Source: Escherichia coli (lineage in GTDB: Bacteria; Pseudomonadota; Gammaproteobacteria; Enterobacterales; Enterobacteriaceae). Taken from it: a DNA stretch of 64,000 bases. Made by a program: the position numbers. Positions 17,101-23,100 of the stretch are shown here, piece by piece (positions within the stretch are counted from its first letter, which is position 1; each line of letters starts with the position of its first letter). The stretch is from assembly GCF_041886205.1 (NCBI RefSeq), contig NZ_CP169029.1. One strand, given 5' to 3'.

Positions 17101-20100
17101 ATGCCATTCGCCAAGTGATCTTGATATATTAATACACCTTCCACCGTAATATTAACATGACCACTAATATCCACCGTGTTATTTTCACCACTGATCACGC
17201 CGCCGCTTATCGGAGTGATTTGTGCATCAGCGTTATCGCCGAGACTGGAATTAATATTAATGCTTCCGTCAACGCTAATATGGCTGTCATTACCCGTCAG
17301 GCTGAAACCTGTAGCACCCGGCGCATTGCCTTCGCTATCTGGTTGCTGGAATACGTTAATATCTCCGCTTAATTCAACCTGCTCACGGTCACCCACAATG
17401 GATACCCCAGTTCCGTATCGCGAAACATCAATTTCGCCCACGTTACCAAAAACTTCATCATCACCATCTATCAGAACTCCCACAGAACCGGAATCCGTAA
17501 CAACAATCTTGCCTTTATTACTTATCTGCGAGTTATTACCGGCGATATAAATACCCGTTGCCCCTCCGCTGACGTAGAGGTCACCTTCCTGGCTAATTGT
17601 TGCATTGTGCCCAGCAACTTTTGTCCCTACCGCATTCTCACCGTCAACCGTCATATCCCCGGCGATATTCATCTCATTGCCATCGCCAGTGATGGTTATA
17701 CCGGTGGCATTCTCACCCAAAATATTAAGATCATAGGTCGCCAGGGTAATACTATTGTTGTCGCCGATAATCTCCATGCCGGTTGTATCGTCTTTAACCA
17801 ACATCGAGCCAGCAAGCGAAATACTGCTGCTGTCCCCGGTGATTTTTACACCAGTACCGTTATTTGTCGTGGTGATGTCCCCCACATTGACAAAGGTAGT
17901 ATTATCACCATTGATTAACACGCCATAGGGGTTTCCATCACCGTCCGCCTGACCAACATTGATATCACCAATGTTCATAAAGGTTGTCTGATCGCCATCC
18001 AGCAACACACCGATGGAACTGTCATCCACCACAGTAATATTACCTTTATTACTGATGACAGTACCCTTACCCTCGGCGTCAATACCGTGTGCGCCACCGC
18101 TGACGTATAAGTCACCCTGCTGCCTTACAATGGCATCTTCGCCGATAATTTTTGACCCCGTTGAATTTGCACCATCAACGGTCATGTCGCCTTTGATTTC
18201 AACGCGGGCATCATCCCCTGTAATCACACTCCCCGTGCCTCCATTCGCGATTTCAACATCACCAACGGTGTCCAGCGTGGTACGATCGCCATTAACAATA
18301 ACTGCCGCCCCACCATCAACTTCCGTCTCACCATTATTAGTAATGGTGATATCATCACCGGTAAGAATACCTACCACCGAACCTTCACCAATCGCGGTAG
18401 TTTTGCCATCGTTGTTCAGGGTGATGTCGTTACCGTCAACGTTTATCACAACGCCGCCATTCAGCGCGATGTTGCCGCCATGGTCGGTAATAGTGGCATC
18501 GTTAATATGGAAATGTTCGCCAGTTGTACCGTCTGCGGTGGTGAGTGACTCTATGATTATTTCGATTTTTCCCGCTTCGTCATAGCGCCAGGTGGAGGTT
18601 CCGCCAGGATTGACGCCATTGAACGAAGCCGTGTTAGCCGCCTCGTCGACTAACCAATCCTTCACGATTGTGGTAGTGCCGCCAGGTCCGGTAAGCGTAT
18701 AGCTGCCATCGTCATTTTTGGTGTAGGTAAAGGTGGTATCACGTAATTTTAGGGTCTTCGCGTCCTGATCCCAGGTGACATCGTTTTTATAGACCACAGG
18801 ATCGTGTTTGACTGGCGTGTCATCGCCACCGTCGTCCGGGGTATCATCGCCGCCATCATCCGGCGGGACAGGTGTGTCGCCGCCATCATCCGGCACCGGA
18901 GACGGATCGTCATGATGATTATTATTATCGTGGAGTGCATATACTGCGACGCCTGTGACTGCCGCTGCCAGCCCCACTGCAGCCCAGGGTAATAACTCAT
19001 TATCTTCAACTGATTTACACTCTGCCGGCAGCTTTTCTAGCTGTTCTTTACTTAGTGATTTAATATTAGCCGGGCAGCTAATCTTGCTGGATTTACGAGA
19101 TTCATCCGATGTTTCCGCTATCGACGTATCTGCCGCCCATGTCTGACTGCTTAACGCCATTGCAACACAGACACTGAGCAATTTTTTCCTTTGCATATGA
19201 AATTCCTCATAAATAGATGATTACGCAGCCCAGATAAACTGCACAGGGTTAAATAGTTACAAATATTCGAAATCTGGATATTGTTTTTAACAGAATAAAT
19301 ATATTGATTTAGCGAATGCATTTATTCATTAAGTCAATACATCTTTTCTTTAATTTATATTTTTAACGCATTTATTTCAACTTAAAATATGACGCAATTG
19401 AGATTAAATCCGATAACACTGATGAATTAAATAATGCAATTAATTCATGAAATAAATAAATTATCATGTGAATGAAGCATTCATCATCGGCATCTATATG
19501 AAATTAAATGAAAAATAATTCTCAATAGCATTGCAGTTAATATTGAATATTTCAGGAGGTACAACCAGGCAGATTTTTCTCGACGAATACCGACTTATTA
19601 TTTTTGCAACCACATTCCGTTTATCCCGCGAATGTATTCTCCCGGCTTAGCTTTTGCTACCAGTTTCTGCCCCGCCAATTTTTCCACTTCCGCAACCGGC
19701 AGATTATTTTTCATGGCGAGTTGTTGATAGCTCTTATTACGCGATTCATTAATCCTTTTGACTAACATCTGTGTTTCGGTATCCGCCTTTAATGCAACCA
19801 GATAACCATTATACGTTTCGCCAACACGCCCCTGAGTTCGAGCGTCATCCAGCGTCAGAGCCATCGCACTGGTGCTAAATAAGGCATTAATGACAAAACA
19901 CAGTATTAAACTTCTCTTCATCATCGCCTCAGAAAAGATCGCTACGAGTTTCAAGCAGCTCTTCGACATCTTTGTCTGCCTTGATGATGATCTCATGCTC
20001 AATTTTAACGTTCATATTGATAGTGATCGGTTCCTTAGGTGCAGCGACTTCAATGCGAGGCGTACAGCCAACCAGCATAAAAGATGACGTCAACGCAGCC

Positions 20101-23100
20101 AGTAAAATTTTCATTGTTTTTCCTCACACTCTTTTCCTTGCGGACAGTCATTTCCCGGCAGACGTGCGTTCTGCTCCAACCATGCCTGGAGATTATCGCC
20201 AAAGCGTAAACTGCGCCACAGCGTAAAAATATTCTCTTCATGATGGTAATTAAGGTTTACCGTACCGCTTTTACCATCAACGCGACTGGTACCTGTAATG
20301 TTGGCCTGCATGGTTAATAAACCGAGATTATCTAAATTAATATTTGTCGATGAACGGCTAATTTCCATATAGCGCAACCAGTTAATTGCTGAACCCGCAG
20401 TCATATTGTCTTTCACCACCGCATCTGCGGTGTCTTTATCCAGCCGCAAGGTCATTGGCCCGCTATTTGCCAGCCAACCATCTTTCACTATCCATTTTTC
20501 GTTGTTTAGCCATAACGGCAATGCACCACTAAATGCCCCGGACATGGCGAATTGTTTCGGATTGACGGCGCTAACCAGTTCGCTGGATGAGAGATTATTC
20601 AGCCGCAACAGCGCCGAGTCATGTTGCGGCATACGTAATTGTTTCATCAGTACGTTACCGCCTAACACATCGACGCTAACATCAGTCAACAGTAATGGTT
20701 CTTCTTCAGTCCACGGATAACGCCCTTGCAAATCAGCCGTAATATTTTTCGCTGTCACCAGATTAATCACTTCGGCAATTCGCAACGTAACGGGGCCGCG
20801 AGTCCCCAGATGCCAGGCTCCATCGGCAAAACGGAAAGGCAGGACAAAATCGACACCGTTAACCTGATTATCTGGCATCCAGGCACTACCGCCTTTCAAC
20901 ACGCCGTGCCCTCCCGCGCGGAATCCTTGTTCAGGCGCAGCAGAAAATGCAACCTGAGCATACAGTTCACCATCGCGTAAGTTCATCTTCCAGTCGGGTG
21001 GCACCAGCGGCTGGAATACAGTCAGTGATTGTTTAGGCCACCAGGCGTTACCGCGCAGACGAATACCGTCCCAGCGACCATTTACCCGAACCGGGCCAAT
21101 CTCACCAGCATGTAAATCGCCTTTAAAGAGGAAATAGGTCGGATCGCGCCCATCGACGCTAAATTTTAAGGTTGATGGCGGTAACACACTGCCGCCAGTG
21201 AACAGCGTTTGCCCGGCGTCCAGTGACAGCGCGCCGCTAAAAGAGGGATGCTGTGCGTCACGTACCCAGACGACGGGCTTGTCGAGAATTAATCGCGGCT
21301 TTTCTACCGTCATCGTACCGTATTGTAACTGGTCGAAACCGGTGGAGAGATCGGTCAGTGTAATCGTGCTGTCATGCCACTCACCCTTTCCTGCGACATC
21401 CCAGGTGGCATTCATCGGTGTAAAACTGCCTTTTCCCCAGTAGCGCCACTGCCAGCGGCCAGCGTCAGGGAGAAAATCATTCGCCAGCCCATCCATATGC
21501 AGCACGAAATCGCCCAGTTCATTTTCATGCGCCTGCAAAATGGCCTGCAAACGTCCGTCAACACCACGTTGGGTGACTTTTACACCCGCTAAAGGCCAGC
21601 GGATTTCATCGATGTCCAGCGAATCGATGACTCTTCCCTTCGAACGTAATAACGCGCCGGGCTCAAAGGCCAGCGTTGGGTCAGTCAGACTTCCACTTAG
21701 CTGCGCGGGTAAGCGGGCATATAAAATGAGGTCCGCCTGTTTCGCTTCACCGGTCAGCTGTAAAGGCAGCTGGCTGTTATCCATGCTTAATTTTCCTGGG
21801 CCAAAATTAAGCACCGCGTTGCCCTTACCCGCTTGCCCCTGGGTCAGCACACTCAGTCGTCCGCTGACCAAAGCGTTCTCAAGCCCTGCCTGCCAGTTGT
21901 CGACTTTGACACCCAGTCGGCCACTCAAAGGAAAACCTGCATACGGCCAGCTCCAGCGACCATCGCTTACGGTCAATTGTTGACGAGTAATTTGCCACGG
22001 CAAATCGAGCAACGGATCGCCGTTATCCCGTGCCAGCACGATCAATTGCCCGCTATTTTCCTGCCAGTCCAGCTCGGCATCCACCAGTGACGGTTCCTGA
22101 GGCAAGTTTAACGTCGCAGTAGCATGACCACTTACAGGAAGTCCATCCGGCACTAGCGGCATAGTAAATTCCCCCACCAGTTTTACCGGCGGCTGATTTT
22201 CAAACGCGACGACATCCAGTTCGCTGACTGTAAGTTGTTGCCCTTTCAGCTGGCCTTGAAATTTAACTTTTTCGCCCTGATAACGCAGTTGCTGGATATC
22301 AGAGGTTAATGCGAGAGAGAGTTTTCCCTGCCATTCCTGCCAGGGAGAAAAAATCAGTTTATCGATATTGATCCAGGTGTTAGGCAGCATGGACTGCCAC
22401 TGCGCGAGGGTTTTTGGAGCAGCTGGCGATTGCTCCGTCTGCGGCAATTTCGCCAGACAAGCAGAATCAAGTTCTACCGTGCCGACGTTCAATAACCAGC
22501 GGCTCGAATGTGAAAGGCTGGCGTTGGTGATATGCGCAAGCTGACAATCTCCCACCAGATAACGGAGATCGGGAATGATTAAACCTTTACGCGTAATGCG
22601 TGGGCTTTCATCTAATGCAATACGTGTCCCGAGCGGTAGCCAGATGCCCGCCAGTGTGGGAACCCACAGCCCGAGCGTCATCAGCAGCGTCAACGGCACA
22701 AGAATAATCAGTAATAACAGCGCGAGAACGGCTTTATATTTACCCAGCATGGGTAGTTAATATCCTGATTTAGCGAAAAATTAAGCATTCAATACGGGTA
22801 TTGTGGCATGTTTAACCGTTCAGTTGAAGGTTGCGCCTACACTAAGCATAGTTGTTGATGAATTTTTCAATATCGCCATAGCTTTCAATTATATTTGAGA
22901 TTTTGTAAAATATTTTTAGTAGCTTAAATGTGATTCAACATCACTGGAGAAAGTCTTATGAAACTCGCCGTTTATAGCACAAAACAGTACGACAAGAAGT
23001 ACCTGCAACAGGTGAACGAGTCCTTTGGCTTTGAGCTGGAATTTTTTGACTTTCTGCTGACGGAAAAAACCGCTAAAACGGCCAATGGCTGCGAAGCGGT

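What the first reader, a model, noticed from the sequence alone, without database searches (positions are those of the whole stretch)
19598..22750. ydbH-ynbE-ydbL envelope operon with overlapping stop and start codons
The AsmA-like YdbH (879 aa), the 61-aa lipoprotein YnbE and the periplasmic YdbL are packed tightly; ydbH and ynbE overlap by 4 nt, and ynbE and ydbL are about 4 nt apart. This family has been implicated in inter-membrane lipid transport. It appears intact and is directly flanked by the island-deletion junction.
Basis: partly seen in the sequence, partly recalled or inferred. Interest (0 to 1): 0.25.

Follow-up and report, generated by a model that had tools for sequence, protein, structure and literature searches.

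The report
Known YdbH-YnbE-YdbL lipid-bridge operon
This is the well-studied E. coli ydbH-ynbE-ydbL operon, which builds a protein bridge between the inner and outer membranes; it is intact and ordinary here, except that its third gene, ydbL, is a rare, deeply divergent but apparently functional allele.

Summary
On the minus strand lie ydbH (22750..20111, 879 aa), ynbE (20114..19929, 61 aa) and ydbL (19921 or 19924..19598). ydbH and ynbE overlap in ATGA. ydbL starts 4 nt (first ATG) or 7 nt (conserved second ATG) after the ynbE stop.

All three proteins hit their families full length. YdbH is 99.1% identical to K-12 YdbH and ynbE is 100% identical in DNA. The operon is found in 5417 of 5426 complete E. 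coli genomes. It is the system characterised by the Ruiz and Isom labs: an inner-membrane beta-groove protein, an outer-membrane lipoprotein that extends the groove, and a periplasmic chaperone-like modulator. It is already known.

Similarity to K-12 collapses exactly at the ynbE stop codon. ydbL is only 64% identical in protein and 68.5% in DNA (dS 1.67, dN/dS 0.15).

This allele occurs in 114 of 5426 genomes. In all of them it is followed by the same AT-rich spacer and variant autotransporter, never by the fea/paa cluster. It keeps every experimentally essential YdbL residue, and its model superposes on crystal structure 28oj.

So the "island-deletion junction" is really a 4.5-kb replaced segment that begins inside the operon.

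The parts
20111..22750 (-). ydbH: inner-membrane-anchored AsmA-like beta-groove protein, 879 aa
   Evidence: Full-length match to Pfam PF11739 YdbH-like: 966 bits against a 26.3 cut-off, profile positions 1-892 of 893. NCBIfam equivalog NF007971: 1398 bits against 824. There are 8 aa differences from K-12 in 879 residues, with dS 0.065 and dN/dS 0.07. The only strongly hydrophobic segment is at the N-terminus, residues ~1-40.
19929..20114 (-). ynbE: outer-membrane lipoprotein, 61 aa, lipobox LVG-C17
   Evidence: Pfam PF13617: 59 bits against a 25.8 cut-off. The DNA is 100% identical to K-12 ynbE. The lipobox, the beta-strand I30-I38 and the C-terminal helix are read directly from the sequence.
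19598..19921 (-). ydbL: periplasmic chaperone-like modulator (DUF1318), 107 aa from the conserved ATG (an alternative ATG at 19924 gives 108 aa); rare divergent allele
   Evidence: Pfam PF07027: 102.5 bits against a 27 cut-off. 64% aa and 68.5% nt identity to K-12, with dS 1.67 and dN/dS 0.15. The AF2 model has pLDDT 89, and its top Foldseek hit is PDB 28oj with TM 0.94 and rmsd 1.1 A. Every residue whose substitution impaired K-12 YdbL is kept or conservatively replaced (compared with the bioRxiv 2026 paper read).
20111..20114 (-). ATGA stop/start overlap of ydbH and ynbE, preceded by the Shine-Dalgarno GAGGA at 20125-20121
   Evidence: Read directly. Identical in K-12. The same overlap is seen in other Escherichia species and in Cedecea.
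19922..19931 (-). ynbE stop TGA (19931-19929), overlapping Shine-Dalgarno GAGG (19930-19927), and the short spacer before the ydbL start
   Evidence: Read directly. Junctions compared across Escherichia.
22751..22957 (.). 207-bp divergent ldhA / ydbH intergenic region, the presumed promoter region of the operon
   Evidence: Position only. The ldhA-ydbH divergent arrangement is conserved from Escherichia to Yersinia and Providencia. The simple sigma-70 consensus scan found no site here on the minus strand.
15465..19928 (.). Segment without K-12-level similarity: the 5' 3.7 kb of the ydbA/bigA-type autotransporter gene, a 401-bp 27%-GC spacer (19197-19597), and all of ydbL. It stands where K-12 has about 26 kb (ydbL, feaR-feaB-tynA, paaZ-paaY, ynbG, and the 5' part of ydbA with IS2 and IS30).
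   Evidence: blastn against K-12. Sliding identity. GC content. No remnant of the island anywhere in the window.

Best explanation
This is the E. coli ydbH-ynbE-ydbL operon, intact.

Shown in K-12 by others and transferred here by near-identity: YdbH is held in the inner membrane by one N-terminal helix and extends a repeating beta-groove about 180 A into the periplasm. The outer-membrane lipoprotein YnbE adds its strand I30-I38 to the last strand of YdbH, and multimerises, to carry the hydrophobic groove on to the outer membrane. Periplasmic YdbL binds the C-terminal helix of YnbE and limits runaway YnbE multimerisation.

The bridge is one of three redundant routes (with TamB and YhdP) proposed to carry phospholipids between the membranes. 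Transport itself has not been shown biochemically.

Inferred here: the ATGA overlap and the 7-nt spacer, whose ribosome-binding site overlaps the ynbE stop, couple translation of the three genes. That helps hold their ratio, which matters because excess YdbL is toxic when the bridge is the only route left.

Specific to this strain: ydbL is an old, rare Escherichia allele that arrived by homologous replacement of the segment downstream of ynbE. That segment also carries a variant autotransporter and lacks the fea/paa cluster. The allele is under purifying selection and most likely does the same job.
For: **Identity**
- Full-length family matches for all three proteins.
- YdbH is 99.1% and YnbE 100% identical to K-12.
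- The operon is present in 5417 of 5426 complete E. coli genomes.
- The ldhA / ydbH-ynbE-ydbL arrangement is conserved out to Yersinia and Providencia.

**Mechanism**
- Taken from PMC8593681, PMC11126948 and bioRxiv 10.64898/2026.03.16.712125.

**Anatomy**
- Single N-terminal hydrophobic segment in YdbH.
- Lipobox LVGC in YnbE, and a signal peptide ending AMA followed by LTLDD in YdbL.

**YdbL function retained**
- L24, R28, E35, Y40, N58, R61, Y65, L68, N72, K86, L87, W104 and K107 are unchanged.
- The only changes at tested positions are E60S (E60A and E60D were tolerated), R90K (tolerated) and I79V (conservative, untested) (compared).
- dN/dS is 0.15.
- The model matches crystal structure 28oj with TM 0.94 and rmsd 1.1 A.

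**Replacement, not local drift**
- ynbE is identical to K-12 while ydbL next to it has dS 1.67, against 0.065 in ydbH.
- The allele is in 114 of 5426 genomes, and all 114 have the same downstream spacer and autotransporter start.
- Relatives at 90% identity or more were seen only in proteins named E. coli or unnamed, and everything else is at 72% or less.
- A 90%-identical copy sits in an Escherichia contig with the same neighbours.
- A chimeric allele, P0014, shows recombination inside ydbL.
Against: - Nothing contradicts the identification.
- Co-transcription and the promoter were not shown. A simple consensus scan found no sigma-70 site upstream of ydbH and no terminator after ydbL.
- Function of this YdbL allele with K-12-type YnbE is inferred, not tested. 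36% of its residues differ, including some in the two long helices that line the binding pocket.
[quoted passage not shown] The nearest genome, 6EVA, carries W104-to-stop in this allele. So selection on it may be weak in this lineage.
- Lipid transport by the bridge is still a proposal in the literature.
Confidence: 0.93

Rival explanations
1. The operon is intact, but the divergent YdbL is a poorly matched partner for the K-12-type YnbE. It binds more weakly or differently, so YnbE multimerisation and bridge assembly are set differently in this lineage, or YdbL is drifting towards loss.
For: - 36% of residues differ from K-12 YdbL while YnbE is identical.
- YdbL is not essential for bridge function.
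- The closest genome has a W104-to-stop variant of this same allele.
- W104A and K107A impair function in K-12.
Against: - Every position whose substitution impaired function in the K-12 study is kept; I79 is replaced only conservatively by V, which was not tested.
- dN/dS is 0.15 over a saturated dS.
- The fold is predicted unchanged.
- The mature part of YnbE, including the helix that YdbL binds, is almost invariant across genera, so any YdbL should fit it.
Confidence: 0.07
2. The flank is a simple deletion of the fea/paa island from a K-12-like ancestor, and the operon lies wholly outside the event.
For: - The fea/paa genes are absent.
- feaR-feaB lie directly downstream of ydbL in other genera (RIT691, Entomohabitans, Cedecea sulfonylureivorans). 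The adjacency is therefore old, and loss is a reasonable direction of change.
Against: - A deletion would leave K-12-like sequence on both sides.
- Instead ydbL (68.5% nt identity), the 401-bp spacer (no match) and 3.7 kb of the autotransporter gene differ from K-12.
- The break falls exactly at the ynbE stop.
- O157:H7 has a third ydbL allele and also lacks the island.
Confidence: 0.1
3. The ydbL allele is a recent import from another genus of Enterobacteriaceae, not an old Escherichia polymorphism.
For: - It is 64-69% identical to the YdbL of Escherichia, Citrobacter and Salmonella alike.
- It sits on a long branch outside them in a neighbour-joining tree.
- That level of YdbL divergence matches genera whose YdbH is only about 65-75% identical.
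Against: - No donor was found. A scan of 100,044 species genomes (limited to two peptide patterns) gave 65% or less.
- A search of a 5.8-billion-protein collection gave matches of 90% or more only in proteins named E. coli or unnamed.
- Within the allele class, diversity (9% nt between the window and L048) exceeds that of the adjacent ydbH (3%). This argues for long residence in Escherichia.
- The tree rests on only 87 residues.
Confidence: 0.25

Closest known systems
E. coli K-12 ydbH-ynbE-ydbL (b1381-b1383), the YdbH-YnbE intermembrane bridge with YdbL (Kumar, Davis and Ruiz 2024, PMC11126948; De'Ath et al. 2026 preprint; PDB 28oj)
   Same: Same species, same position next to ldhA, same gene order, same ATGA overlap. 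YdbH is 99.1% identical and ynbE 100% identical in DNA. YdbL has the same length, the same predicted fold and the same essential residues.
   Different: ydbL is 64% identical in protein and 68.5% in DNA. Downstream, K-12 has feaR-feaB-tynA-paa and an IS-disrupted ydbA. Here there is a 401-bp AT-rich spacer and an uninterrupted 1961-aa autotransporter ORF.
E. coli O157:H7 ydbH-ynbE-ydbL (for example strain 86-24, locus L003)
   Same: It also lacks the fea/paa cluster, has an autotransporter gene directly after ydbL, and carries a non-K-12 ydbL allele.
   Different: It has a third allele, 64% identical in protein to the window and 75% in DNA to K-12. Its divergent block reaches into ynbE (81% nt identity), and its autotransporter is split into two ORFs.
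TamB-TamA and YhdP, the other AsmA-like proteins of E. coli
   Same: According to the literature: an N-terminal inner-membrane anchor, a periplasmic repeating beta-groove, and a redundant role in outer-membrane lipid homeostasis.
   Different: TamB pairs with the outer-membrane barrel protein TamA, and YhdP has no known partner. Only YdbH uses a small multimerising lipoprotein plus a periplasmic modulator encoded in the same operon. Neither paralogue was examined here.

Membership tests
YdbH family (Pfam PF11739, NCBIfam NF007971 equivalog; AsmA-like) | Full-length match to the family model above the curated cut-off | tested here: met
   PF11739: 966 bits against 26.3, covering profile positions 1-892 of 893. 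NF007971: 1398 bits against 824.
YdbH family (Pfam PF11739, NCBIfam NF007971 equivalog; AsmA-like) | Single N-terminal transmembrane anchor, with the rest of the protein periplasmic | tested here: met
   The Kyte-Doolittle 19-residue windows scoring above 1.6 all start at residues 1-22, so the hydrophobic segment spans about residues 1-40.
YdbH family (Pfam PF11739, NCBIfam NF007971 equivalog; AsmA-like) | Repeating beta-groove fold with a continuous hydrophobic groove | not tested
   No model was made. It is inferred from 99.1% identity to K-12 YdbH. PDB holds no YdbH relative.
YdbH family (Pfam PF11739, NCBIfam NF007971 equivalog; AsmA-like) | Redundant with TamB and YhdP; supports phospholipid traffic to the outer membrane | not testable with these tools
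   Genetic evidence exists in K-12 only (PMC8593681, PMC11126948).
YnbE-like lipoprotein (Pfam PF13617) | Family match, a lipobox with a cysteine to be lipidated, and a gene immediately after ydbH | tested here: met
   59.3 bits against 25.8. The sequence reads MKILLAALTSSFMLVG-C17, and the gene overlaps the ydbH stop by 4 nt.
YnbE-like lipoprotein (Pfam PF13617) | Beta-strand I30-I38 that augments YdbH, and the C-terminal helix K45-T56 bound by YdbL | tested here: met
   The sequence is identical to the K-12 protein in which these elements were mapped.
YdbL family (Pfam PF07027, DUF1318) | Family match above the cut-off and a cleavable signal peptide | tested here: met
   102.5 bits against 27. 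The N-terminus reads MKRSLILCFVINALFSTSAMA followed by LTLDD. The mature part aligns with the crystallised construct from residue 22.
YdbL family (Pfam PF07027, DUF1318) | Fold of the solved YdbL structure (28oj) | tested here: met
   The AF2 model has pLDDT 89. Foldseek to 28oj gives E 1.9e-12, target-normalised TM 0.94 and rmsd 1.1 A over 86 columns. This is a prediction, not a solved structure.
YdbL family (Pfam PF07027, DUF1318) | Residues shown by mutagenesis to be needed for function | tested here: met
   L24, R28, E35, Y40, N58, R61, Y65, L68, N72, K86, L87, W104 and K107 are identical. The changes are E60S, I79V and R90K, and E60A/D and R90K were tolerated in K-12.
YdbL family (Pfam PF07027, DUF1318) | Binds YnbE and restrains its multimerisation | not testable with these tools
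   This needs binding or genetic assays with this allele.
ydbH-ynbE-ydbL operon | The three genes are co-transcribed and translationally coupled | tested here: inconclusive
   The ATGA overlap and the 7-nt spacer, whose ribosome-binding site overlaps the stop codon, are present. The consensus scan gave no usable promoter or terminator call on the minus strand. No expression data are available.

The most novel reading that the evidence does not exclude
The deep allele classes of ydbL in E. coli may be maintained by selection rather than carried along with the variable neighbour. There are at least three classes, each tied to a different downstream autotransporter or island configuration. For example, YdbL might have a second, fast-evolving partner such as the adjacent BigA/YdbA-type autotransporter. 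Alternatively, different alleles might set different YnbE multimerisation thresholds. The window would then hold a natural non-cognate pairing of a K-12-identical YnbE with a 36%-divergent YdbL.
Probability: 0.05. Interest if true: 0.45.

Novelty: already known. Interest (0 to 1): 0.15.

Why it matters
The operon itself adds nothing new. It is the same system already dissected in E. coli K-12.

The small useful point is a natural variant. This YdbL differs from the K-12 protein at 36% of its positions. It still keeps every residue found essential by mutagenesis, and it sits next to an unchanged YnbE. It is a ready-made test of which YdbL surfaces matter.

The result also corrects the usual picture of ydbL as a fixed 'core' gene bordering the variable paa region. 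The border of that variable region is the ynbE stop codon.

Tried and rejected
- **Promoter and terminator scan, 19150-23000.** No minus-strand sigma-70 site upstream of ydbH and no terminator after ydbL. Counts were at or below the shuffled expectation, so nothing could be concluded.
- **Rfam at E up to 1, 19000-23100.** No RNA family matched.
- **Repeat search, 19100-23000.** Only short two-copy chance matches. No IS ends or direct repeats mark a junction.
- **PDB sequence search with YdbH.** No solved relative.
- **Search for a donor of the ydbL allele.** The scan of species-representative genomes gave 65% identity or less. The 5.8-billion-protein search gave matches of 90% or more only in proteins named E. 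coli or unnamed. The contig encoding the 90% relative turned out to be Escherichia with the same neighbours. No donor was found.
- **Search for remnants of the K-12 fea/paa island in the whole window.** None found.
- **Local accelerated evolution of ydbL.** Rejected, because dS is saturated while the adjacent ynbE is identical to K-12.
- **The 123- or 134-aa upstream-extended ydbL ORF that some annotations use.** Rejected, because it overlaps ynbE and would bury the signal peptide.
- **Structure prediction of YdbH.** Not run, because 99.1% identity to K-12 makes it uninformative.
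Full report
**What is in the sequence**

The window is E. coli chromosome. The best match, strain 6EVA, has 2 mismatches in 4001 bases. The finding's span holds three ORFs, all on the minus strand.

- ydbH runs 22750..20111 and encodes 879 aa.
- ynbE runs 20114..19929 and encodes 61 aa.
- ydbL ends at 19598.

The ydbH stop and the ynbE start share ATGA at 20114-20111. A GAGGA lies 7 nt upstream of the ynbE ATG.

After the ynbE TGA (19931-19929) come GGCG and then two in-frame ATGs. The first ATG, at 19924, gives a 4-nt gap and 108 aa. PGAP uses this start in the nearest genome. The second ATG, at 19921, gives a 7-nt gap and 107 aa. It corresponds to the K-12 annotation.

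I prefer the second ATG for two reasons. It is present in every Escherichia junction compared, whereas E. whittamii lacks the first ATG. It also lies 5 nt after the GAGG that overlaps the ynbE stop.

There are no frameshifts or internal stops.

**Identity of the three genes**

| Protein | Pfam family | Score vs cut-off (bits) | Other evidence |
|---|---|---|---|
| YdbH | PF11739 | 966 vs 26.3; profile 1-892 of 893 | NCBIfam equivalog NF007971, 1398 vs 824 |
| YnbE | PF13617 | 59.3 vs 25.8 | 100% DNA identity to K-12 |
| YdbL | PF07027 | 102.5 vs 27 | Matches PDB 28oj |

Against K-12 MG1655, YdbH has 8 substitutions in 879 residues. Written K-12 to window, they are P82S, A120S, A196T, S356T, T361A, I493V, P712S and K803N. 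ynbE is identical at every nucleotide.

The expected sequence features are all present.

- YdbH has one N-terminal hydrophobic segment.
- YnbE has the lipobox LVG-C17.
- YdbL has a signal peptide ending AMA, followed by LTLDD.

The operon region is found in 5417 of 5426 complete E. coli genomes. The divergent ldhA / ydbH-ynbE-ydbL arrangement is conserved out to Yersinia, Rahnella and Providencia.

**How it works (from the literature)**

TamB, YhdP and YdbH are redundant, and jointly essential, for outer-membrane lipid homeostasis (PMC8593681).

YdbH is predicted to be too short to cross the periplasm (about 180 A against about 250 A). The lipoprotein YnbE adds its strand I30-I38 to the last strand of YdbH and multimerises, which extends the hydrophobic groove to the outer membrane. 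[quoted passage not shown] YdbL is not required, but it prevents excessive YnbE multimerisation, and excess YdbL is lethal in that background (PMC11126948).

A 2026 preprint solved the YdbL structure (PDB 28oj). It showed that YdbL binds the C-terminal helix of YnbE and listed the residues needed for function.

Phospholipid transport through the bridge remains a proposal. My own inference is that the overlapping and near-overlapping stop/start signals couple translation and help keep the YdbH:YnbE:YdbL ratio. The dosage toxicity of YdbL shows that this ratio matters.

Similarity to K-12 collapses exactly at the ynbE stop codon.

- Sliding identity is 98-100% through the last 450 nt of ydbH and all of ynbE. 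It then falls to 58-80% in ydbL.
- ydbL is 68.5% identical in DNA and 64% in protein to K-12.
- For ydbL, dS is 1.67 and dN/dS is 0.15. For ydbH, dS is 0.065.
- This pattern indicates replacement by recombination of an old or foreign allele that remains under purifying selection. It does not indicate local drift.

K-12-level similarity resumes only at window 15464, inside the autotransporter gene. The different segment is therefore 15465-19928. It holds the 5' 3.7 kb of a ydbA/bigA-type autotransporter gene, a 401-bp spacer of 27% GC with no match in K-12 or O157, and ydbL.

In K-12 the same interval is about 26 kb. It contains K-12-type ydbL, feaR-feaB-tynA, paaZ to paaY, ynbG, and the 5' part of ydbA interrupted by IS2 and IS30. 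No remnant of the island exists anywhere in the window.

The phrase 'island-deletion junction directly flanking the operon' is therefore imprecise. The island is absent, but the boundary of the variable region lies inside the operon. A published description treats ydbH, ynbE and ydbL as the fixed core bordering the heterogeneous paa region (PMC4951805). At the sequence level ydbL is part of the heterogeneity.

**Distribution and origin of the allele**

- The window-type ydbL, with its spacer and autotransporter start, occurs in 114 of 5426 complete genomes. All 114 cover the whole junction, so it is never next to feaR.
- K-12-type ydbL dominates. The K-12 query matched 5292 genomes, and 4192 of them include the feaR end.
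- About 370 genomes fall in a 60-80% identity band. These are exemplified by O157:H7, which has a third allele, also lacks fea/paa, and has a split autotransporter after ydbL. In O157 the divergent block reaches into ynbE, at 81% nt identity.
- In a 5.8-billion-protein collection, relatives at 90% identity or more are all named E. coli or unnamed. The next hit, at 72%, is a chimera with a window-type signal peptide and a K-12-type mature part. Escherichia, Citrobacter and Salmonella proteins are all at 64-69%.
- A scan of species-representative genomes found nothing above 65%. That scan was limited to two peptide patterns.
- A neighbour-joining tree on 87 residues puts the allele on a long branch outside the Escherichia-Salmonella-Citrobacter group. 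This is weak evidence on its own.
- The contig encoding the 90% relative is Escherichia. Its ydbH is 96.7% identical to both the window and K-12, and it has the same autotransporter downstream. Diversity within the allele class (9% nt) therefore exceeds that of the adjacent ydbH (3%).

I read this as an old haplotype segregating in Escherichia. The ultimate source is unknown.

Whether the fea genes were lost or gained cannot be settled. feaR-feaB follow ydbL in three other genera, which favours ancient adjacency and later loss. E. albertii goes straight from ydbL to pdxI.

**Is the divergent YdbL functional?**

Almost certainly yes.

- Positions L24, R28, E35, Y40, N58, R61, Y65, L68, N72, K86, L87, W104 and K107 are unchanged.
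- The changes at tested positions are E60S, R90K and I79V. In K-12, E60A, E60D and R90K were tolerated. I79V is conservative and untested.
- An AlphaFold2 model built on 22 homologues has pLDDT 89. Its helices at 48-72 and 76-90 match the crystal description. Its only significant PDB match is 28oj, with TM 0.94 and rmsd 1.1 A.
- The mature part of YnbE is nearly invariant across genera, so any YdbL should recognise it.

There is a caveat. YdbL is dispensable, and the nearest genome (6EVA) carries TGG to TAG at W104 in this allele.

**Null results**

- The simple promoter and terminator scan gave nothing usable.
- Rfam gave no hit.
- The repeat search gave only chance pairs.
- PDB holds no YdbH relative.

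**Verdict**

This is a real, intact and already known system, in the very species where it was characterised. The one addition is that ydbL here is a rare, deeply divergent allele belonging to the replaced segment that also removes the fea/paa cluster. Interest is low, at 0.15.

Noticed in passing
window 13311-19196 (minus strand): An uninterrupted 1961-aa ydbA/bigA-type autotransporter ORF. It has a signal peptide (MQRKKLLSVCVAMALSSQTWA) and a barrel-like C-terminus ending in KKTF. In K-12, ydbA is broken by IS2 and IS30. The 5' 3.7 kb has no K-12-level similarity, while the 3' 2.1 kb is 95% identical. PGAP marks the copy in the nearest genome as a pseudogene with an internal stop, and that copy appears to differ in length.
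   Followed up: partly
window 9872-12184 (minus strand): ydbD appears split into two ORFs of 544 and 206 aa, against 768 aa in K-12. PGAP also notes an internal stop in strain 6EVA.
   Followed up: no
window about 9507-9515; ORF 8037-9707 (minus strand): About 1.6 kb of K-12 sequence is missing: the 3' part of ynbA, all of ynbB and the 5' part of ynbC. A 556-aa ORF spans the joint and may be a ynbA-ynbC fusion.
   Followed up: no
L001 (strain 6EVA), equivalent to window 19611: The closest genome differs from the window by a C-to-T change that turns YdbL W104 (TGG) into a stop (TAG). This removes W104 and K107, both of which matter for function in K-12. It looks like a natural truncation of this ydbL allele.
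   Followed up: partly
P0014 (ENA contig, 4453 bases): A chimeric YdbL with a window-type signal peptide and a K-12-type mature part. It shows recombination with a breakpoint inside ydbL.
   Followed up: no
L003 8774-8959 (O157:H7 strain 86-24): In O157:H7 the divergent block extends into ynbE. It is 81% identical in DNA to K-12 (dS about 1.8), and within the mature protein only E52D and E55K differ. The other Escherichia species examined also carry D52 and K55.
   Followed up: partly
window 19197-19597: A 401-bp spacer of 27% GC between ydbL and the autotransporter gene. It has no match in the K-12 or O157 loci and no Rfam hit. It is probably the regulatory region of the autotransporter.
   Followed up: partly
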